This document shows positions 19,050 through 50,768 of a stretch of 64,000 bases of DNA, one piece after another. The notes beneath the pieces were generated by a model, which had not been told where the DNA came from, made no database searches, and saw only the letters and a list, made by a program, of their open reading frames with translations. Source of the stretch: Escherichia phage phiWec179; sequence record LC739533.1; one strand, written 5' to 3'. Position 1 is the stretch's first letter. The number at the start of each line of letters is the position of its first letter. A program made the translations under genes and the position numbers.

Positions 19050-19128
19050 GATATTTGGAGGCGGGAATCGGATTCGAACCGATGATCTCCAGCATATGAA
19101 ACTGGCGAGGACGACCAAACTCCTCTAT
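19050..19128 (-). tRNA. tRNA with anticodon CAU (Met or Ile2)
   Basis: Hand-folded: acceptor AGCGGGA/TCCCGCC (1:72 mismatch), anticodon stem CCAGT/GCTGG, loop TTCATAT, T-arm ATCGG-TTCGAAT-CCGAT, encoded CCA. Confidence 0.6.
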
Positions 19129-19134
19129 CCCGCT

Positions 19135-19205
19135 ATTAGGTGTCCCGTGCTGGATTCGAACCAGCATCACAATAAGTTGTGGATCTCTTATCCTGTAAGT
19201 CTAAC
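19135..19205 (-). tRNA. tRNA-like element, non-canonical (no standard anticodon arm found)
   Basis: Perfect T-arm GCTGG-TTCGAAT-CCAGC and near-complementary acceptor strands, but the middle forms a CACAA/TTGTG tetraloop hairpin instead; no encoded CCA. Confidence 0.3.
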
Positions 19206-19206
19206 G

Positions 19207-19280
19207 GGAAACTGGTTGTTTCGACAAGAATCGAACTTGTGTCTCACGATTATCAGTCGTGGGTTCTACCATTGAACTAC
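19207..19280 (-). tRNA. tRNA-Ile (GAU)
   Basis: Acceptor TGTTTCG/CGAAACA, D-arm GTTC-AATGGTA-GAAC, anticodon arm CACGA-CTGATAA-TCGTG, T-arm ACAAG-TTCGATT-CTTGT, encoded ACCA. Confidence 0.75.
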
Positions 19281-19286
19281 GAAACA

Positions 19287-42283: not shown

Positions 42284-43276
42284 ATGCGCTATCTGGTAAC
42301 AGGTGGTCTTGGTTTTATTGGGAGCGCCGTTGTGCGCTCTCTTTGTCAAGATCCTAATAACGAAGTTTTTGTCATTGATAAAATGGGCTACGCAGCCGAT
42401 ATTGAAAATGTAGGGGATATCACTCACGCCAAACTAAGCATGACGGATTTGGCAAACGAAGCACAGGTCAAAAGTTTGGTGGTAGAATGCAACCCTGATT
42501 TCATTATTCACTTAGCGGCAGAGAGTCATGTGGACAACTCTATCAAAAATCCACGAGCTTTCATCGACTCCAATATCATCGGTACATATAATTTACTGGA
42601 AGCTGCGAGACTACTCCCAAGGAATAAGCTGAAGATGTTTGTACACGTCTCCACAGACGAAGTGTACGGCGATATGGCAGACTCTGGCGCTCCCTTTACC
42701 GAAGAGACAGCATATACTCCTTCAAGCCCGTACAGCGCGTCCAAGGCGGCTTCTGATCATCTTGTGAAAGCTTGGCACCGTACTTATGACTTGCCTGTAG
42801 TGATAACTAATTGCTCCAATAATTTTGGACCTTACCAATACCCTGAAAAATTGATTCCAAAAGTAATCACAAGCATCTTGACGAACAAAGAAATCCCAGT
42901 GTATGGTAAAGGTGATCAGGTACGAGACTGGCTTTTTGTTGAGGACCATGCACGAGCTATTCTTCAGGTAGCTTCTGGCGGCGAACCTGGACAAACTTAC
43001 AACGTAGGTACACGTAATCCTAAAACCAATATGGAGATCATCTATATGATTTGTGATTACATGGATGCCGTACACCCGCAAAGTGGAACCTACCCCTCTT
43101 CAAGTTTAATAACTTTTGTTGAAGATCGTAAAGGACATGACTTGCATTATGAAATCAACCCTGCTAAGATTGAATCTGAACTGGGTTGGAGTGCAAACTC
43201 CACATTTGAACAAGACCTTTACTCTACGATAGAGTGGTATTTAAACAACCCTCAATGGTGGAGAGAAAAGATTTAA
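42284..43276 (+). CDS. rmlB: dTDP-glucose 4,6-dehydratase
   Basis: TGGLGFIGS Rossmann motif, [10 protein letters not shown] (YxxxK) catalytic motif. Confidence 0.85.
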
Positions 43277-43284
43277 GGAGGGTT

Positions 43285-44163
43285 ATGAAAGGTATTATTT
43301 TGGCTGGAGGAAGTGGAACCCGCCTACATCCAGTAACACGCAGTGTGAGCAAGCAATTGCTCCCTGTGTATGACAAACCTATGATTTATTATCCTTTATC
43401 AGTCTTGATGTTGGCAGATATTAAGGATATCTTAATCATCACAACCCCAGGCGATCAGGAAGATTTTGAGTATCTTCTTGGAGATGGATCTATGTTTGGG
43501 ATAAAGATCACTTACGCAATGCAGTCTGAACCACGAGGTCTTGCAGATGCTTTCATCATTGGTAAAGATTTCATTGGGGAAGATTCTGTTGCCCTTATTT
43601 TAGGGGATAACTTGTTCTTCGGACAAAGTTTCGGAAAACTTCTTATCCAAGCCAGCGAAATGGTGGATGTTTGGGGTGGAGCTTGTATCTTCGGGTATCT
43701 GGTGAAAGATCCTGAACGATTCGGTGTTGTTGAGTTTGGAAGTAATCGCCAAGCTATCTCTATTGAAGAGAAACCGGAACATCCTAAATCAGACTATGCT
43801 GTCACGGGTTTGTATTTCTATGACAACTCTGTTGTTCAACGTGCATTGGAAGTAACCCCTTCCGAGCGTGGAGAACTGGAGATCACAGATATCAATCGCA
43901 GCTACCTCGAAGACAGGAAGTTACAAGTTGAAGTTCTTGGAAGAGGATTCACTTGGTTGGATACAGGGACACACGCCAGTCTAATGGAAGCAGGTCAATT
44001 CGTGCAGACTATTGAGAACTGCCAAGGATTGAAGATTGCGTGCCTGGAAGAGATCGCTTTCAAAAAAGGGTGGATTTCTTTAGAGACTTTGGTGTATCAT
44101 GGCAACTCATTGAAGAAAACAGAGTACGGGCAATATTTGTTAAAATTAGCGGAGGGTAAATGA
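43285..44163 (+). CDS. rmlA: Glucose-1-phosphate thymidylyltransferase
   Basis: [17 protein letters not shown] signature; start set to ATG 43285 after RBS AAGGAGGG. Confidence 0.85.
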
Positions 44164-44720
44164 AAATAAAAGAATTAAGTATTCCTGGTCTGGTTGTCTT
44201 TAAACCTCAAGTTTACAAAGATGATCGTGGTTACTTCACGGAGACGTTTAACGAGAAGATTTACGAAGAGGTTATTGGCAAACAAACGTTTGTTCAGGAT
44301 AACCATTCATTCTCTACTTTAGGTGTTCTTCGCGGAATGCACTTTCAAGTAAACAATCCGCAAGGTAAGCTTGTACGTTGCACACGAGGTGAAGTTTTTG
44401 ACGTGGCTGTAGATCTTCGTGAAGGTAGTCCAACCTTCGGACAATGGGAAGGTGTGATTCTTAGTGGGCGTAACAATAAACAGTTTTGGATTCCACCTGG
44501 CTTTGCACATGGTTTTGTTGTAACCTCTTATGAAGCCAACTTTGAATACAAGTGCACCAACTACTACGATCCGGCATCTGAACGTAGTTTGTTGTGGAAC
44601 GATCCTACTGTGAATATTGATTGGGGTTTTGATATGATTTTCAATGATGAGAATTTTGTACCTATCATTTCGGAAAAGGATGCACAAGCTAAAACACTGA
44701 AGGAGCTTATGGAATCATGA
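44160..44720 (+). CDS. rmlC: dTDP-4-dehydrorhamnose 3,5-epimerase
   Basis: Cupin-type RmlC pattern ([11 protein letters not shown] ... GMHFQ ... [10 protein letters not shown]). Confidence 0.85.
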
Positions 44721-45559
44721 AAACATATTTAGTATTGGGTGGTAATGGTCAATTAGGTCAGGCACTGCGTAAAGTGGTGCCGGAGAATGTGACTTTGGTG
44801 TATCCAGAAAAGCGTGTAGATATCACCAGTTTCGAAGCTGTAAGAAAAGCGATCATGGACACCCCAAATATTAACGGTGTTATCAACTGTGCGGCATACA
44901 CTGCGGTGGACAAAGCAGAGACAGATGTTGATGCAGCTATGGCTGTAAATTTACACGGGGCAGCTAATATTGCTGCCTTCTGTAAGGCTTGGGATATTGA
45001 CATGGTGCATATTTCTACTGACTATGTGTTCAACAGCGATAAACCGTTGTTCCATCAGGATGAACCCAACCCTATCAATGTTTACGGGTTATCTAAAAGT
45101 TTGGGTGAAGCTGCTGTTCGTGGTATCTACCATAAAGCTTTTATTATCCGCACGGCTTCTGTGTATAGCGAGTTTGGTAACAACTTCCTGAAGACTATGG
45201 TGTCTCGTTACAACGATGGTCAAAGAGACTTCTCGGTAGTTGCAGATCAAACATCTCGACCAACTTATGCCCCAGATTTGGCTAAGATGATTTTCCAAGT
45301 GTTGGAAACAGGATATAACACCCGTACTTTGCATTACGCTGGGAACATCACTGTTTCGTGGCACCAGTTCGCAAAAATGATATTGACACGTATGCCTGAA
45401 TCTGTTATTATACACCCGACCTCTGCTGCAACCTATAATTCGGCAGCGATGCGACCAGCAAAGTCTATACTAATTACGTCTGGTTGGAACGAACCTTCAA
45501 GCGTCGGACAAGGTATTGAAGAATCTTTAGCAGTATTACTTAATAAGGAGAGAGCATGA
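44717..45559 (+). CDS. rmlD: dTDP-4-dehydrorhamnose reductase
   Basis: LVLGGNGQLG Rossmann motif; ATGA-coupled to rmlC. Confidence 0.8.
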   Translation: MKTYLVLGGNGQLGQALRKVVPENVTLVYPEKRVDITSFEAVRKAIMDTPNINGVINCAAYTAVDKAETDVDAAMAVNLHGAANIAAFCKAWDIDMVHISTDYVFNSDKPLFHQDEPNPINVYGLSKSLGEAAVRGIYHKAFIIRTASVYSEFGNNFLKTMVSRYNDGQRDFSVVADQTSRPTYAPDLAKMIFQVLETGYNTRTLHYAGNITVSWHQFAKMILTRMPESVIIHPTSAATYNSAAMRPAKSILITSGWNEPSSVGQGIEESLAVLLNKERA

Positions 45560-45979: not shown

Positions 45980-46483
45980 ATGGCTAAAAAAGTAGTAGAT
46001 GAGTTTGACATGTTGGCTGTTGATGAAGGACTGAAGCTGACTGTTTACCCAGACACCTTGGGATATTGGACAGTCGGCATTGGACACCTCTTAACTAAAA
46101 AGAAAGATAAGGCGGAAGCTATTCGTATTCTGGATGCTCTTGTTGGTCGCAAGACTAACGGAGTTATCACAGAGAAAGAAGCCCGTGCTATCTTTGCTGA
46201 CGATGTTGAAAAGGCGAAAAAACAGATTAAAAACAGTTCCATTCTTGCCCCAATTTATGATAAGGTGAGTGAAACCCGTAAACTGGCAATCATCAATATG
46301 GTGTTCCAGTTGGGGTTAACAGGAACGGAAGGCTTTAAAAATAGCTTGACTTTAATCAGTAATTCGTACTATACTCAAGCTGGTAAAAACATGAGAGCCA
46401 GTAAATGGTACTCTCAAACGCCAAACCGTGCAGAACGAGTAATCAAGGTTCTAACATCTGGGACTCTTGATTCTTACAACTAA
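45980..46483 (+). CDS. Endolysin, T4 lysozyme-like (GH24)
   Basis: Collinear with T4 lysozyme: DEGLKLTVYPDTLGYWTVGIGHLLTK ... NMVFQLG ... WYSQTPNRAERV. Confidence 0.85.
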   Translation: MAKKVVDEFDMLAVDEGLKLTVYPDTLGYWTVGIGHLLTKKKDKAEAIRILDALVGRKTNGVITEKEARAIFADDVEKAKKQIKNSSILAPIYDKVSETRKLAIINMVFQLGLTGTEGFKNSLTLISNSYYTQAGKNMRASKWYSQTPNRAERVIKVLTSGTLDSYN

Positions 46484-46485
46484 CA

Positions 46486-46506
46486 AAGGGGCGCAAGCCC
46501 CTTCTA
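46486..46506 (+). terminator. Hairpin, weak terminator
   Basis: GGGGC-GCAA-GCCCC followed by TTCT. Confidence 0.35.
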
Positions 46507-46520
46507 TAAGGAGTGCTACT

Positions 46521-47276
46521 ATGGGAAAAACAGCTACCGCTAAATCACCGCGCCAGAAGTTAGCTTCTAATGCGAAAGTAGAAAGTCGTTATGCTGCAAA
46601 AGCAGTTGGAAATGATGACTATCGTTTAGATGGGTTTTCACCAGAAGGAGATCAGCAGCAAATCGTTCAAAGTATGATCTGGAATGATCTTACAGTCGTA
46701 AATGCTCCAGCAGGGACAGGCAAGACTTCCGTGACTTTATGGAAAGCTTTGCAGATGCTTCGAGCAGGAGATTTCCGTAAGCTTCTTTTTATTAAAAACC
46801 CGACTGAAGTTGGTGATGATCAGATTGGTTTCCTTTCAGGAGATAAAACTGATAAACTGGCGGCGCACTACGAATCAACCAAACGAATCTTCCAGCAGTT
46901 TATGACTGCAAACAAATTAGAGAATGATATTGGTTCCGGTAAGATTGAACTTAATATCCCGAACTACCTACTGGGTGCTACCCTGGACAACACTATTGTG
47001 ATCATTGATGAAGCACAGCTTATGTCTCCAGAAACATTAAAACTTCTGGTAGAGCGTGCAGGGATCAACACTCATGTTGTTGTTCTTGGAGATGTTCGTC
47101 AAACCTACGCTATCAAGAAGCGTGCAAACGGTTTGAAAGATCTTCTTGACAAAGTTGCCCCTGAAGGTGAAGATGGTGTTCGTGTCCCTCTGGTAGACTT
47201 TATCGGTTATGTGCAGTTAACCACAGATGACAACAAACGATCTCGTTTGTCTAAGTTCATCACGGAAATTTATTAA
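46521..47276 (+). CDS. phoH: PhoH-like ATPase
   Basis: Walker A GTGKT, Walker B VIIDEAQ; start moved to ATG 46521. Confidence 0.75.
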   Translation: MGKTATAKSPRQKLASNAKVESRYAAKAVGNDDYRLDGFSPEGDQQQIVQSMIWNDLTVVNAPAGTGKTSVTLWKALQMLRAGDFRKLLFIKNPTEVGDDQIGFLSGDKTDKLAAHYESTKRIFQQFMTANKLENDIGSGKIELNIPNYLLGATLDNTIVIIDEAQLMSPETLKLLVERAGINTHVVVLGDVRQTYAIKKRANGLKDLLDKVAPEGEDGVRVPLVDFIGYVQLTTDDNKRSRLSKFITEIY

Positions 47277-47315
47277 TAACAAAAAAGCAAGGATGCTTTA
47301 TTAAAGGGAGGGTCG

Positions 47316-47813
47316 ATGGTACAGACAATTATAGATCGGACTGGTATTGATGAATGTTACCAAACTGGGCTTGTGAAGCCTAACGAGTTCCGACAGATTT
47401 GCGTGAATCATATTGAGAAAGAAATTGCACTAACTTTGGAGAACCTTACTCTCCGAGACAAGCTGTCAATGTTTGTGGCTTGGTGTAAAGGTGAAGATTG
47501 GTTATTGGCCCATTTTCAAGAACTTTCTGATAGTCAAGAAGGCTTATATGAATGTATAATAGGAATAGCTGGCTCCAATCCTGAACTTCTCCATTTGGAA
47601 GAAGAAGAGGCGAAGTTATTGTTCTTAAGCAACATGTTCAATCGTAAAGCATTGCTTGTTCGTGAGTGTAGTGATCTTTTAAATCATCCACTGGCGATCA
47701 CAAACGAAATACTGGTTGACAAAGAGACATTACGTGCGATAGACTATCTGCGCAAGTATGTCAACGGCGGGAAAGCAGTTCTTAAAACATTAACAGAGGA
47801 GGAAGCAGAATGA
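47316..47813 (+). CDS. Hypothetical protein
   Basis: 165 aa; ATGA-coupled to HslV-like gene. Confidence 0.45.
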   Translation: MVQTIIDRTGIDECYQTGLVKPNEFRQICVNHIEKEIALTLENLTLRDKLSMFVAWCKGEDWLLAHFQELSDSQEGLYECIIGIAGSNPELLHLEEEEAKLLFLSNMFNRKALLVRECSDLLNHPLAITNEILVDKETLRAIDYLRKYVNGGKAVLKTLTEEEAE

Positions 47814-48499
47814 CTACAATTATCGCAACCAAAAACAAGATCCTTAGCGACGGTAAAGTAACTTTCGGTGGTCGTGTAGATTCAACCAATTTCAAGAAAG
47901 TACGTAAGATTGGGGATTATCTCGTAGGTGGCGCAGGGCGTTTGACTTCGGTATTAGCTTTCTTCCAGTGGTTCGAACAGAACCTGCAATGTGAAGCGGC
48001 GCGTGAGGCAGTGCCTGGGTTGATGATCAGTTCTAACCCTGATCGTGAAGATGAAGAGTTTATTGCTCTCGTTGTTCACCCAGACGGACGTATTTTCCTG
48101 CATGAAGGTAATGATCCTACTCGTGCATACCCAATCGACGAAGAATACTACGCAGTAGGTAGTGGTTCCGATTTCGCGCTCGCAGCACTGGACGGCGGTG
48201 CTTCTCCAGAAGCTGCTATGGAGGTTGCCAAGAAGCGTGACGCATACTCCGGTGGCGAAACCTTCGTTGAAGAATTAGATGAGATCATTGAACTGACTGA
48301 CGAAGATCTCGAAAACTTCACCAAACAAGAACTGATCAACCTGCTCAAGTTTGGTGATCCTTCTGGTGAAGAAACTCCTCGTGACGTGGCAGGTGACGAG
48401 ACGGTAGAAGAAGAGGTTGCTGTAGAAAAAGACTTGACTTCTAAACCGGAAAATATTAATCTCGTAAACGTAGCGGATTTCGACAATCCCGCTGCTTAA
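47810..48499 (+). CDS. HslV-like N-terminal-threonine peptidase with acidic C-terminal extension
   Basis: After Met: TTIIATKNK (Thr nucleophile position), KKVRKIGD, GGAGRLTS, AVGSGSDFALAAL, collinear with HslV; extra acidic tail. Confidence 0.55.
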   Translation: MTTIIATKNKILSDGKVTFGGRVDSTNFKKVRKIGDYLVGGAGRLTSVLAFFQWFEQNLQCEAAREAVPGLMISSNPDREDEEFIALVVHPDGRIFLHEGNDPTRAYPIDEEYYAVGSGSDFALAALDGGASPEAAMEVAKKRDAYSGGETFVEELDEIIELTDEDLENFTKQELINLLKFGDPSGEETPRDVAGDETVEEEVAVEKDLTSKPENINLVNVADFDNPAA

Positions 48500-48504
48500 T
48501 AAAA

Positions 48505-48527
48505 CTGCCCCTTCGGGGGCATTTCTT
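48505..48527 (+). terminator. Rho-independent terminator
   Basis: GCCCC-TTCG-GGGGC followed by ATTTCTT. Confidence 0.45.
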
Positions 48528-48544
48528 ACACAGAGGAGATTATT

Positions 48545-48982
48545 ATGTTGAACGTTCCTGTTAAATTCGTCGATAGCTGTGTTAATGCTTACCAACAAAC
48601 TTGTAAACGTGCCTCAAACTGTTTGCAGTCTTTGATTCAAACGCGGTACGTGATCCAAAAGAAAAGAAAGTGGTTTGGTAAGGATTCTTATAGTGTTAAT
48701 GCGTTTGGGGAGTATCAACTCCAATATGACGATAACATGCAGCACATCTTAGAGTTTTTACTGATAAAAGATAAAATCTCCCCTGCGGATTACCAGTTAC
48801 TTAAATTCTACGATCAGAGTTTGTCTATTGAGGAAGTTATTGAAGATATCCTTTCTCGTAAGACAGATAAGAACACTATTGGTATTACAAACTTAGAGAT
48901 GCAATTGCTTAATGAGATCTTTTTGTTTGTGGAAGATGAGTCTGTAACTAAGGAGGAGCTTTTAAATGGCTTTAAGCTATGA
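48545..48982 (+). CDS. Hypothetical protein
   Basis: 145 aa; RBS AGAGGAG. Confidence 0.45.
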   Translation: MLNVPVKFVDSCVNAYQQTCKRASNCLQSLIQTRYVIQKKRKWFGKDSYSVNAFGEYQLQYDDNMQHILEFLLIKDKISPADYQLLKFYDQSLSIEEVIEDILSRKTDKNTIGITNLEMQLLNEIFLFVEDESVTKEELLNGFKL

Positions 48983-49475
48983 TCGTCCAGAGTCCGATTA
49001 CTATCCGACTCCGCAAAAAGCGATTAACTCGTTATTTAGCATTATTGATTTTAAAAATTTGAAAGAGGAAGGATTTACATTTGCAGAACCGTGTAAAGGA
49101 CAAGCAGCGGCTATTTACCGTCACTTCCCTGAAGGTTCTCAGTATTGTGAGCTTGAAGAAGGTAAAGATTATTTTAGTCACGTATGGGAAAATCGTCCCG
49201 ACATTATAATCACTAACCCCCCGTTCAAGCTGGCATTAGAGTTCTTGGAAAAGAGCTTGAAAGAAGCAGACGTATCAGTCTACCTGCTTCGCTTGGGATT
49301 CCTTGAGTCAAAGAAACGTCGAGCGTTTCATCAAGAAAACCCACCTACGAATTTGATTGTACTCTCCGAACGTCCTTCGTTCGTAGCGGGTGGAACAGAT
49401 AAGACAGCGTATGCTTGGTACGTATACGATCCAAAACAAATTTTGGGTCTAACTCAACCATTTTATTTCGTTTAA
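48966..49475 (+). CDS. DNA N6-adenine methyltransferase, small phage Dam-like
   Basis: N-terminal DYYPTP and catalytic NPPF motif in 169 aa. Confidence 0.55.
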   Translation: MALSYDRPESDYYPTPQKAINSLFSIIDFKNLKEEGFTFAEPCKGQAAAIYRHFPEGSQYCELEEGKDYFSHVWENRPDIIITNPPFKLALEFLEKSLKEADVSVYLLRLGFLESKKRRAFHQENPPTNLIVLSERPSFVAGGTDKTAYAWYVYDPKQILGLTQPFYFV

Positions 49476-49989: not shown

Positions 49990-50181
49990 ATGCAGGAGAA
50001 TGAAGAGATAGTTGTTAAAAAGTTCCCGACACGTACACAGGCAGTCAACTTTGCCTCTGATTTGCTTTTGGATGTGGAAGGAGTTCTCATTAGACATGAA
50101 GGGGATTCCTGGAATGTCTCTTATAATGTAAACAGATCAATTATATATTTAGGAGAAGAGAACTTCTCTCGTATAGAGTGA
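49990..50181 (+). CDS. Hypothetical protein
   Basis: 63 aa; RBS AAGGAGG. Confidence 0.4.
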   Translation: MQENEEIVVKKFPTRTQAVNFASDLLLDVEGVLIRHEGDSWNVSYNVNRSIIYLGEENFSRIE

Positions 50182-50195
50182 TCGAAGGAGCAATT

Positions 50196-50768
50196 ATGCG
50201 TTCTACTTACACAGGTAAGATTAATTCTGGTATCATTTTAGCAGCAGCAGGAATCATCAGCAAAACTTTCAAAGTGGCAAACCTACCAGAGTGTGTAGAT
50301 TTTGACCACGTATTCAATCCATTAAATCCTTCTCGTTGTGTTGTTCGTAGCAACGTTGAGAATCCAAATGAGAACTTGTTTTATGTAACATCACCTTCAC
50401 AAAGTATTCTAAACCAAGTGGAGGCTAAAATTATTACCGAAGGTAGTTATTTCTCATTGCTACCTTGTAAATCGGTGGAGATTGAAGATAGTATCACCTT
50501 CGCAAATAACTTGGTCTTGACCATGTTCATGGTTTCTGATAAAGACTGTGGAGACGATATGGTTTTAGCTGTAAGGAATGTTTATGACACATTGGGTATT
50601 GCTTATAGCTGTAAGTTGTGCGATGATTATAAATCTTGTTCAGACTTTTACATAAATGGTGTTCGGGTATGCCGTGTTGAATCCTACTGGGTGCAAGACA
50701 CATACATAACAGTAGCGAACGTGATCAATGAACCTATGTTCAGCCACGCTTTAGCGTTAATCATTTGA
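50196..50768 (+). CDS. Hypothetical Cys-containing protein
   Basis: Start moved to ATG 50196 after RBS AAGGAG. Confidence 0.4.
   Translation: MRSTYTGKINSGIILAAAGIISKTFKVANLPECVDFDHVFNPLNPSRCVVRSNVENPNENLFYVTSPSQSILNQVEAKIITEGSYFSLLPCKSVEIEDSITFANNLVLTMFMVSDKDCGDDMVLAVRNVYDTLGIAYSCKLCDDYKSCSDFYINGVRVCRVESYWVQDTYITVANVINEPMFSHALALII

What the first reader, a model, noticed from the sequence alone, without database searches (positions are those of the whole stretch)
48966..49475. Compact Dam-like N6-adenine methyltransferase
A 169-aa ORF carries the phage Dam-family features DYYPTP and NPPF. This points to anti-restriction self-methylation of phage DNA, possibly of newly made DNA that may also be sugar-modified.
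Basis: partly seen in the sequence, partly recalled or inferred. Interest (0 to 1): 0.4.

Follow-up and report, generated by a model that had tools for sequence, protein, structure and literature searches.

The report
Small stand-alone phage DNA methyltransferase
This is a real, well-conserved 169-residue phage gene for a stripped-down methyl-transferring enzyme that most likely marks adenines in the phage's own DNA, an ordinary kind of phage gene, though it is not a true relative of the classic Dam enzymes and nobody has yet shown what sequence it marks or why.

Summary
The ORF (48966-49475, +, 169 aa) and both motifs (DYYPTP residues 11-16, NPPF residues 84-87) are real. The gene has a strong ribosome-binding site and is under strong purifying selection (dN/dS 0.02-0.06). 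The window is Escherichia phage phiWec181/186.

It is not a member of either Dam family. PF02086 gives no hit. PF05869 gives no hit, and profile-profile probability is 6%.

A DNA target is favoured by the EPC-type motif I and by gene neighbours. In 36 independent lineages these are mostly DNA polymerase, helicase, RNR and other DNA methylases.

The anti-restriction role is plausible but unproven. Related phages carrying orthologues are reported as exceptionally restriction-sensitive, so any protection must be narrow. The sugar-modification idea rests only on a nearby rhamnose operon.

Overall this is ordinary. A more striking side observation is that the whole phage genome contains no CTAG.

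The parts
48966..49475 (+). Coding sequence of the 169-aa stand-alone amino-methyltransferase (stop codon included)
   Evidence: ORF list and sequence; PHROG 799 E = 3e-54; AF2 model pLDDT 90.5, Rossmann-type MTase core; dN/dS 0.02-0.06
48950..48956 (+). Shine-Dalgarno sequence AAGGAGG, 9 nt upstream of the ATG; it lies inside the end of the preceding ORF
   Evidence: Read directly from the sequence
48996..49013 (+). Motif X-like DYYPTP (residues 11-16), the N-terminal Y-x-TP element that precedes motif I in M.TaqI/HsdM-type enzymes
   Evidence: T15 invariant; D11, Y13 and P16 at 90% or more; aligns with EFYTP of the PacII methylase in the profile search, at a non-significant E-value
49080..49100 (+). 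Motif I, FAEPCKG (residues 39-45), the predicted SAM-binding loop after strand beta-1
   Evidence: E41, P42 and C43 invariant, G45 at 90% or more; aligns with YDPACGTGG of PacII M; strand 39-41 in the model
49149..49172 (+). Predicted motif II/III acidic residues: E62 (SAM ribose contact) and D68-Y69 (SAM adenine contact)
   Evidence: E62 and D68 at 90% or more, Y69 invariant; the functional assignment is inferred by analogy with M.TaqI (own knowledge)
49215..49226 (+). Motif IV, the catalytic NPPF (residues 84-87), directly after strand beta-4
   Evidence: N84, P85 and P86 invariant; strand 80-83 in the model; the only such motif in the window
49371..49400 (+). Conserved RPSF...TD segment (residues 136-145). 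F139 is the likely second aromatic that stacks on the flipped base. This is also the site where some homologues carry a Cys-rich, zinc-ribbon-like insertion
   Evidence: R136, P137, F139 and D145 invariant; insertions of about 25 residues with CxxC...CxC in P0046, P0052, P0089, P0096 and P0118; the stacking role is inferred
48545..48982 (+). Upstream 145-aa ORF of unknown function whose end overlaps the MTase start by 17 nt (context only, not a conserved partner)
   Evidence: PHROG 15078, unknown function; present in Stephanstirmvirinae but absent next to the MTase in rV5, phiTE, 18-1-2 and other loci
48506..48521 (+). Terminator-like GC-rich hairpin between the HslV-like gene and the 145-aa ORF/MTase unit (context)
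   Evidence: Consensus scan; the number of such sites in the region is not above shuffled expectation

Best explanation
The gene encodes a minimal SAM-dependent amino-methyltransferase that is essentially only a catalytic domain, with motifs in the order X (DYYPTP), I (EPCKG), II/III (E62, D68-Y69), IV (NPPF). Most likely it flips an adenine out of double-stranded phage DNA into the NPPF/F139 pocket and methylates N6. It would recognise a short, still unknown sequence through loops of the core rather than a separate recognition domain. It lies in the same-strand gene block as nucleotide-metabolism genes, so it would act on newly replicated phage DNA. The most probable benefit is protection against a narrow set of host restriction enzymes; roles in replication, packaging or gene control are also possible.

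Shown: the gene is real, conserved and under selection; it has the methyltransferase fold and all cofactor and catalytic motifs; it has no recognition domain and no conserved partner; it associates with DNA-replication genes across lineages.

Inferred: adenine-N6 chemistry, DNA as the substrate, site specificity, and the anti-restriction role.
For: Family and fold:
- PHROG 799 'DNA methyltransferase', E = 3e-54.
- AF2 model pLDDT 90.5, pTM 0.87.
- Best Foldseek PDB hit is M.TaqI (E = 1.2e-4).
- Invariant E41-P42-C43, N84-P85-P86, R136-P137-x-F139 and D145.
- Motif X and motif I align with PacII and StySJI DNA methylases (FYTP..., DPACGTGG). An acidic-Pro start to motif I is typical of DNA amino-MTases, whereas RNA enzymes usually have (D/E)xGxGxG (own knowledge).
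- PADLOC type II MTase model, E = 7e-5.

DNA context:
- Across 36 lineage-independent viral loci the nearest neighbours are DNA polymerase A (6), DnaB-type helicase (5), RNR (4), exonucleases, SSB, RecA, ERF, P2 replication protein A, and other DNA methylases (D12 x2, EcoRI-type, C5).
- In P2-like phage ACA1 the gene lies between replication genes B and A.
- On a cyanobacterial plasmid it sits directly upstream of a DnaB-like helicase and a DNA polymerase.
- In phage SEP9 it is adjacent to a PF01555 DNA methylase.
- On plasmid pHAE2 it is beside a DndB-like gene.

Other:
- Selection: dN/dS 0.02-0.06.
- Some homologues carry basic Cys-rich insertions or tails suited to nucleic-acid binding.
Against: - No experiment on any member of this family was found.
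- No curated Pfam or NCBIfam family is reached.
- No restriction endonuclease partner was seen in any context.
- Relatives carrying orthologues are reported as exceptionally sensitive to type I, II and III RM systems (PMC8594841), so no broad protection is conferred.
- This phage has purged CTAG completely, which shows it relies at least partly on site avoidance.
- phiWec188's record carries a frameshift in the gene. If that is real, the gene is dispensable in the laboratory.
- The neighbour tally has no matched background control.
Confidence: 0.62

Rival explanations
1. It is an RNA methyltransferase (m6A or m2G on tRNA or rRNA, of phage or host) rather than a DNA enzyme. It would work like METTL5/PH1948, TrmN6 or Erm/KsgA, perhaps tuning translation in a phage that carries its own tRNA set.
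For: - The profile aligns over 60 residues with ErmAM.
- The size (about 170-200 aa) matches stand-alone RNA enzymes.
- The phage encodes 10 tRNAs.
- A tRNA nucleotidyltransferase lies 1-2 genes downstream in phiTE and 18-1-2, and a PhoH-like ATPase is conserved upstream.
- Carriers are RM-sensitive.
Against: - Motif I is E-P-C-x-G, as in DNA amino-MTases, not (D/E)xGxGxG (own knowledge).
- Neighbours across 36 lineages are overwhelmingly DNA replication and DNA methylase genes. Only one RNA-related family appears among the 25 commonest of the 70 neighbour families found.
- The 'histidyl tRNA synthetase' annotated downstream in PsgM04F has no Pfam support.
- The tRNA genes are about 28 kb away on the other strand.
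- There is no conserved TRMT112-like partner.
Confidence: 0.13
2. It is a genuine Dam-type enzyme: a GATC-specific N6-adenine methylase homologous to phage Dam proteins. It would top up host Dam methylation on rapidly replicating DNA.
For: - Sub-threshold PF05869 hits occur in relatives (rV5-type E = 0.001; P0339 E = 4e-4).
- PF05869 is a similarly small (169-position) domain with the same W/Y-x-TP ... NPP(Y/F) order.
- A PF05869-annotated phage MTase appears in the BFVD hits at E = 8e-7.
- GATC is not avoided in this genome (337 observed, 350 expected).
Against: - The query gives no PF05869 or PF02086 hit at E <= 1.
- hhalign against a T1-Dam profile gives 6% probability, motif IV only.
- Family members occur in phages of Listeria, Staphylococcus, Clostridioides and cyanobacteria. 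Several of these hosts are not known to use Dam/GATC methylation (own knowledge), so a uniform GATC specificity is unlikely.
- The host already methylates GATC.
Confidence: 0.1
3. It is a sequence-non-specific adenine methylase (M.EcoGII-like in behaviour) that coats phage DNA with m6A and so blocks many restriction enzymes at once. That would explain how it can dispense with a recognition domain.
For: - The protein is only a catalytic core, and no partner is conserved.
- The family is very widespread in phages of many hosts, as expected for a host-independent shield.
Against: - Vequintavirinae and phi92-like phages, which carry orthologues, are 'exceptionally susceptible' to RM systems (PMC8594841). 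The BASEL panel, as I recall it, includes the adenine-methylation-sensitive EcoRI and EcoRV (own knowledge).
- This phage's complete CTAG purge and its strong GGCC, CCGG and GTAC depletion suggest restriction pressure is still felt.
- Small phage Dam enzymes show that site specificity is possible without a separate domain (own knowledge).
Confidence: 0.05
4. It methylates something else with a planar amino or amide group (a protein glutamine as HemK/PrmC does, or a nucleotide or hypermodified base), or it is catalytically idle and serves as a binding protein.
For: - There are weak Pfam MTS-domain hits.
- A dTDP-rhamnose operon and a predicted glycosyltransferase in the same genome hint at unusual chemistry.
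Against: - These structural matches are clearly weaker than those to adenine-N6 nucleic-acid enzymes.
- All cofactor and catalytic motifs are invariant and under strong purifying selection, which argues against an idle protein.
- Nothing links the rml genes to this ORF across lineages.
Confidence: 0.05

Closest known systems
M.TaqI / MmeI / type I HsdM catalytic domains (gamma-type N6-adenine DNA methyltransferases; Pfam N6_Mtase PF02384, Eco57I PF07669)
   Different: Sequence similarity is confined to motifs and stays below every Pfam threshold. There is no C-terminal target-recognition domain and no HsdS-like partner. The spacing between motifs II and III is unusually short, and the whole protein is 169 aa against 380-750 aa or more.
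Phage Dam family PF05869 (phage T1, HP1-type Dam)
   Same: A small phage-borne orphan enzyme with an N-terminal aromatic-x-TP element and central NPP(Y/F). It is encoded among replication and early genes, and the presumed function is self-methylation of phage DNA.
   Different: No detectable family membership: no hmmscan hit for this protein and hhalign probability 6%. Motif I differs (DLDAAA in T1 Dam against EPCKG here).
E. coli / T4 Dam (D12 class, PF02086)
   Same: Presumed N6-adenine chemistry, with an (N/D)PP(Y/F) catalytic motif.
   Different: Different class. Dam has its recognition domain between motif I and DPPY, whereas here only 38 residues separate them. There is no PF02086 hit.
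METTL5 / PH1948 / Erm-KsgA RNA N6-adenine methyltransferases
   Different: Motif I type differs (own knowledge). There is no TRMT112-like partner or Erm/KsgA C-terminal domain. The genomic context is DNA replication, not translation.
PHROG 799 / pVOG VOG0822, e.g. phi92 gp056, phiTE_140, PVP-SE1 'putative DNA methyltransferase'
   Same: This is the family the protein belongs to (E = 3e-54). Orthologues are 83-100% identical in Stephanstirmvirinae and 42-47% in Vequintavirinae.
   Different: None in kind. The family name is a computational annotation, and I found no biochemical or methylome evidence for any member.

Membership tests
PHROG 799 (phage 'DNA methyltransferase' family) | Significant match to the family profile | tested here: met
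   E = 3e-54, 185.9 bits, residues 4-157
SAM-dependent amino-methyltransferases (N6A/N4C/N2G type) | Class I Rossmann-like methyltransferase fold | tested here: met
SAM-dependent amino-methyltransferases (N6A/N4C/N2G type) | Catalytic (D/N/S)PP(Y/F/W) motif IV after strand beta-4, and a glycine-containing motif I after beta-1 | tested here: met
   NPPF 84-87 after strand 80-83; EPCKG 41-45 after strand 39-41; both in invariant columns
SAM-dependent amino-methyltransferases (N6A/N4C/N2G type) | Methyl transfer from SAM to an exocyclic amino group | not testable with these tools
   Needs an enzyme assay or a methylome
Gamma-class type II DNA N6-adenine methyltransferases (M.TaqI-like) | Linear motif order X-I-II-III-IV-...-VIII | tested here: met
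   DYYPTP (11-16), EPCKG (41-45), E62, D68, NPPF (84-87), RPSF (136-139)
Gamma-class type II DNA N6-adenine methyltransferases (M.TaqI-like) | C-terminal target recognition domain | tested here: not met
   The protein ends about 15 residues after the last core strand, and up to 159 of 169 residues align to catalytic domains alone
Gamma-class type II DNA N6-adenine methyltransferases (M.TaqI-like) | Match to Pfam N6_Mtase (PF02384), Eco57I (PF07669) or EcoRI_methylase (PF13651) above the gathering score | tested here: not met
   Best is EcoRI_methylase at 12.8 bits against 26.4. Relatives also stay below threshold
Phage Dam family (Pfam PF05869) | Match to the PF05869 profile at or above its gathering score (28.1 bits) | tested here: not met
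   No hit at E <= 1 for the query. Relatives reach 12.9-20.6 bits. The positive control, T1 Dam, scores 236.5 bits
Phage Dam family (Pfam PF05869) | Profile-profile homology over the whole domain | tested here: not met
   hhalign of A1 against 18 T1-Dam-type sequences: probability 6%, 34 columns around motif IV only. Caveat: the Dam profile had low diversity (63% identity or more)
E. coli/T4 Dam (D12 class, Pfam PF02086) | Match to PF02086, and alpha-type order with the recognition domain between motifs I and IV | tested here: not met
   No PF02086 hit. Motifs I and IV are 38 residues apart
E. coli/T4 Dam (D12 class, Pfam PF02086) | GATC specificity | not testable with these tools
   GATC frequency is at expectation, which is uninformative
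Restriction-modification system methylase | Adjacent cognate restriction endonuclease | tested here: not met
   None in the window neighbourhood. None among the 25 commonest of the 70 neighbour families found for 144 neighbours in 36 lineages, though generic PD-(D/E)XK nucleases occur twice
METTL5/PH1948-type RNA m6A methyltransferases | Structural similarity of the core | tested here: met
METTL5/PH1948-type RNA m6A methyltransferases | Sequence-level family match, or an activating partner (TRMT112-like) | tested here: not met
   Profile against PDB: METTL5 at E about 1, motif IV region only. No conserved neighbouring small ORF

The most novel reading that the evidence does not exclude
This protein represents a very large (over 13,000 clusters), Pfam-less, phage-specific family of catalytic-core-only amino-methyltransferases whose way of choosing targets is new. 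It might act on single-stranded or replication-fork DNA alongside the phage replisome, which would fit its frequent position next to polymerase and helicase genes. Or it might methylate RNA (tRNA or rRNA) and so be a phage-encoded epitranscriptomic enzyme. Either would explain why carriers stay restriction-sensitive.
Probability: 0.15. Interest if true: 0.6.

Novelty: new member of a known kind. Interest (0 to 1): 0.3.

Why it matters
For this gene the practical value is modest. It is better described as a stand-alone M.TaqI/HsdM-type catalytic core of PHROG 799.

It also flags that a very common phage gene family (about 13,500 clusters at 50% identity, no Pfam model, no solved structure, no experiment found) is named 'DNA methyltransferase' by inference only. 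Because the enzyme is only 169 residues with no recognition domain, finding its motif would show how little protein is needed for site-specific, or non-specific, DNA methylation. That could yield a compact tool enzyme.

For phage therapy candidates of the Stephanstirmvirinae, knowing whether this gene, the rhamnose operon or site avoidance (no CTAG at all) governs escape from restriction would help predict host range.

Tried and rejected
- **Dam membership:** tested by hmmscan and by building a T1-Dam profile for hhalign. Rejected.
- **Conserved specificity partner:** the overlapping 145-aa upstream ORF and the downstream small ORFs have no homologues beside the MTase in rV5, phiTE, 18-1-2, SEP9, ACA1, K575, S-TIM4 or a metagenomic locus. 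Rejected.
- **Domain fusions as a substrate clue:** the long family members turned out to be tandem duplications of the same module behind a signal-peptide-like leader (P0365, P0414), or short Cys-rich basic tails (P0270). No informative Pfam domain.
- **Plasmid leading-region context (ardA/ssb/psiB):** not found. Most plasmid hits look like phage-plasmids or misfiled phages, judged from their size, hosts and non-mobilizable typing.
- **Protein charge:** pI 5.4, family median 6.3. Not discriminating, because the T1 Dam family is similar.
- **Palindrome usage as a clue to specificity:** GATC is neutral, so nothing points to a protected site. This test did reveal the CTAG purge.
- **Second methylase in the genome:** the only other NPPF-containing ORF (phiWec186 24479-25042) is PHROG 14179 'glycosyltransferase', not an MTase.
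- **Literature:** eight full-text searches and nine papers read gave no methylome, knockout or biochemical data for this family or phage group.
- **AFDB50 fold search:** unavailable.
- **Promoter and terminator scan:** nothing above shuffled expectation.

Full report
**1. The observation**

The window is 100% identical over the tested 2.5 kb to Escherichia phages phiWec181 and phiWec186 (LC739534/5). These are ~150-kb myoviruses of the Stephanstirmvirinae, for which a new genus 'Wecvirus' has been proposed (PMC12695924).

An ATG-to-TAA ORF of 169 codons lies at 48966-49475 on the + strand. It is preceded by AAGGAGG nine bases upstream. Its start overlaps the end of a 145-aa ORF by 17 nt. DYYPTP is residues 11-16 and NPPF is residues 84-87. 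No other ORF in the window carries a (D/N/S)PP(Y/F/W/H) motif.

The gene is not a chance ORF:
- It matches PHROG 799 at E = 3e-54.
- It has tblastn relatives in 531 phage records.
- Against its orthologue in phage PsgM04F it shows 7 synonymous and 0 non-synonymous differences. Against Phapecoctavirus and Justusliebigvirus orthologues, dN/dS is 0.02-0.06.

**2. What the protein is**

No Pfam, NCBIfam or PDB sequence match is significant. None of 210 homologues carries a precomputed Pfam domain. Nine further family members and fusion proteins also stay below every Pfam gathering score.

An alignment of 62 diverse homologues shows these invariant residues: T15, E41-P42-C43, Y69, N84-P85-P86, R136-P137-x-F139 and D145.

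AlphaFold2 with that alignment gives a confident model (pLDDT 90.5, pTM 0.87) of a compact Rossmann-type methyltransferase core.
- Foldseek's best PDB match is M.TaqI.
- Up to 159 of 169 residues align to catalytic domains alone, so there is no target-recognition domain.

The motif order (Y-x-TP, motif I, acidic residues, NPPF) is the M.TaqI/HsdM ('gamma') order. A profile search of PDB sequences lines up DYYPTP and EPCKG with FYTP and DPACGTGG of the PacII methylase, though at non-significant E-values.

**3. Size and make-up of the family**

An exhaustive profile search of 1.84 billion representatives finds 13,479 clusters at E <= 1e-3 and 6,875 at E <= 1e-10. Nearly all are 130-260 aa. Members occur in:
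- phages of Escherichia, Klebsiella, Salmonella, Cronobacter, Pectobacterium, Vibrio, Aeromonas, Listeria, Staphylococcus and Geobacillus, and in cyanophages;
- phage-plasmids;
- temperate phages.

**4. Is it 'Dam-like'?**

The E. coli/T4 Dam family (PF02086) gives no hit. Its architecture, with a recognition domain between motif I and DPPY, is also incompatible with the 38 residues that separate EPCKG from NPPF here.

The phage Dam family (PF05869) is a fairer comparison, because it is also small and starts with W-x-TP.
- I confirmed T1 Dam as a PF05869 member (1.7e-70).
- I built a profile from 18 of its relatives and compared it with the family alignment. hhalign gives 6% probability over 34 columns around motif IV.
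- hmmscan gives no PF05869 hit for the query and only 13-21 bits (cut-off 28.1) for some relatives.

So the protein may work like a small phage Dam, but it is not demonstrably a member of either Dam family.

**5. DNA or RNA?**

Fold alone cannot decide. Three lines of evidence favour DNA.

(a) Motif I begins acidic-Pro (E-P-C-x-G). This is typical of DNA amino-methyltransferases, whereas RNA enzymes usually have (D/E)-x-G-x-G-x-G (own knowledge, illustrated).

(b) Gene context. I fetched 80 viral loci and reduced them to 36 lineages whose methyltransferases are less than 60% identical. I then scanned the 144 nearest neighbouring ORFs against Pfam. The commonest families were:
- DNA polymerase A (6)
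- DnaB-type helicase (5)
- ribonucleotide reductase (4)
- polymerase-associated and 5'-3' exonucleases (4 and 3)
- PD-(D/E)XK nucleases, SSB, RecA, ERF, the P2 replication protein and dUTPase
- other DNA methylases (D12 x2, EcoRI-type, C5)

Only one RNA-related family appeared among the 25 commonest families shown. This tally has no matched background control.

(c) Individual contexts:
- between replication genes B and A in a P2-like phage;
- directly upstream of a DnaB-like helicase and a polymerase on a cyanobacterial plasmid;
- next to a PF01555 DNA methylase in Staphylococcus phage SEP9;
- next to a DndB-like gene on a 5.8-kb Paracoccus plasmid.

Against DNA:
- tRNA nucleotidyltransferase and PhoH-like genes lie nearby in the rV5/phiTE group.
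- The phage has 10 tRNA genes, though they are about 28 kb away on the other strand.
- The 'histidyl tRNA synthetase' annotated downstream in PsgM04F has no Pfam support.

I put the RNA alternative at about 13%.

**6. How does it find its target, and what is it for?**

No flanking ORF is conserved with the gene across divergent phages. The 145-aa upstream ORF (PHROG 15078, unknown function) is confined to the Stephanstirmvirinae. No restriction endonuclease neighbour was seen. The enzyme therefore appears to act alone.

Small phage Dam enzymes show that a core of about 170 residues can be site-specific, so the lack of a recognition domain is unusual but not unprecedented (own knowledge).

A non-specific 'coat everything' activity is unlikely. 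[quoted passage not shown] The phi92-like BASEL phage PaulScherrer carries one in the same 90%-identity cluster as P0004, which is 83% identical to the query. A later paper makes the same point for Stephanstirmvirinae (PMC10844046).

Anti-restriction therefore remains the default hypothesis, but only against a narrow and unknown set of enzymes. I found no methylome, knockout or biochemical study of any family member.

The record of phiWec188 has a 1-nt deletion (AACCCACC to AACCC-CC, equivalent to window position 49343) that frameshifts the gene at codon 126. Its sibling phiWec190 is intact. If this is not a sequencing error, it is a natural knockout and shows the gene is dispensable in culture.

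**7. The 'sugar-modified DNA' idea**

The window does encode a complete RmlB-RmlA-RmlC-RmlD dTDP-L-rhamnose pathway at 42284-45559. The genome also has a PHROG 14179 'glycosyltransferase' outside the window (phiWec186 24479-25042). Nothing links these to DNA or to the methyltransferase. The association is not conserved in other lineages, and the literature treats DNA rhamnosylation as conjecture.

**8. Comparison with known families, and novelty**

The protein works most like the catalytic domain of M.TaqI/MmeI/HsdM-type N6-adenine DNA methylases. In biology it resembles the small orphan phage Dam enzymes. It is a member of neither at the sequence-family level.

It does belong to PHROG 799/VOG0822, whose members (phi92 gp056, phiTE_140 and the identical PsgM04F protein) are already annotated as DNA methyltransferases. 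I therefore rate it a new member of a known kind, of modest interest (0.3).

The residual novel reading is a minimal-methylase family with a new targeting mode, or an RNA target. I give it about 15%.

**9. Noticed in passing**

The phage contains no CTAG at all.
- In the 64-kb window: 0 observed, against about 106 expected from a Markov model and 186 +/- 11 in dinucleotide-preserving shuffles. TAG occurs 636 times and CTA 683 times.
- In 151.1 of the 154.55 kb of phiWec186: 0 observed, about 250 expected.
- Every locus of the same clade is also CTAG-free. Sister genera have 1-2.6 CTAG per kb, and the median observed/expected among 79 other loci is 0.69.
- GGCC (0.32), CCGG (0.53) and GTAC (0.64) are also depleted, while GATC is not.

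This lineage-specific purge looks like restriction-site avoidance, or self-protection from a CTAG-specific nuclease. It is arguably more surprising than the methyltransferase. It also shows that this phage does not rely on methylation alone. The two papers on this clade do not mention CTAG or methylation, and one full-text search found no report of a CTAG-free coliphage.

Noticed in passing
window 1-64000 (whole window); also L101 and L102 (phiWec186 117451-154550 and 3451-53450), L001, L013, L022, L025, L027: The tetranucleotide CTAG is completely absent. In the window it is 0 observed against about 106 (Markov) or 186 +/- 11 (shuffles) expected. In 151.1 kb of the phiWec186 genome it is 0 against about 250 expected. 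TAG and CTA are common. Only this clade ('Wecvirus', PsgM04F and related metagenomic contigs) shows it. Sister genera Phapecoctavirus and Justusliebigvirus have 1-2.6 CTAG per kb. GGCC, CCGG and GTAC are also depleted, while GATC is not. This suggests lineage-specific restriction-site avoidance or a CTAG-directed nuclease. It was not mentioned in the two papers on this clade.
   Followed up: partly
window 42284-45559 (+): A complete dTDP-L-rhamnose biosynthesis operon: RmlB 42284-43276, RmlA 43234-44163, RmlC 44160-44720, RmlD 44717-45559, all with Pfam E-values of 1e-71 to 1e-80. The literature calls it a 'putative dTDP glycosylation machinery'. Its acceptor (DNA, virion protein or host glycan) is unknown.
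   Followed up: partly
L102:21029-21592 (= phiWec186 24479-25042, outside the window): A 187-aa ORF containing TNPPF is not a methylase. It matches PHROG 14179 'glycosyltransferase' (E = 1e-102). It is a candidate transferase for the rhamnose made by the rml operon.
   Followed up: partly
L013:964-1480 (phiWec188), equivalent to window 49343: The phiWec188 record has a 1-nt deletion in a C-rich run (AACCCACC to AACCC-CC). It frameshifts the methyltransferase at codon 126, so the gene is annotated as 129 aa. The sibling phage phiWec190 is intact. This is either a sequencing error or a natural knockout that could be used as a comparator.
   Followed up: partly
window 46467-48499 (+), and L002, L003, L004: The gene order PhoH-like ATPase (46467-47276), then an HslV/proteasome-like or ClpP-like protease (47810-48499; Pfam Proteasome 1e-5), then the methyltransferase is conserved across phAPEC8-, rV5-, phiTE- and Avunavirus-type phages. 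A PhoH-related gene also lies about 2 kb upstream of the homologue in Staphylococcus phage SEP9. The reason for this linkage is unknown.
   Followed up: partly
P0365 (L014:347-2029) and P0414: Two family members of 560 and 448 aa are tandem duplications of this methyltransferase module behind an N-terminal signal-peptide-like hydrophobic leader. One is encoded next to a Spore_YunB gene, so it probably comes from a Firmicute. An apparently exported double DNA-methylase-like protein is odd and unexplained.
   Followed up: no
window 19056-21113 (-): A cluster of 10 tRNA genes (Met x2, Ile, Pro, Gln, Gly, Thr, Tyr, Ser, Arg) on the minus strand.
   Followed up: no
window 50178-50768 (+): The ORF annotated 'histidyl tRNA synthetase' in the PsgM04F record has no Pfam hit at E <= 1e-3, so that annotation looks unsupported.
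   Followed up: partly
L019:1476-3843 (Paracoccus plasmid pHAE2): On a 5.8-kb plasmid a homologue of this methyltransferase lies next to a small hypothetical gene and a DndB-like (DNA sulfur modification family) gene, both on the opposite strand. This may be a compact modification or defence module.
   Followed up: no
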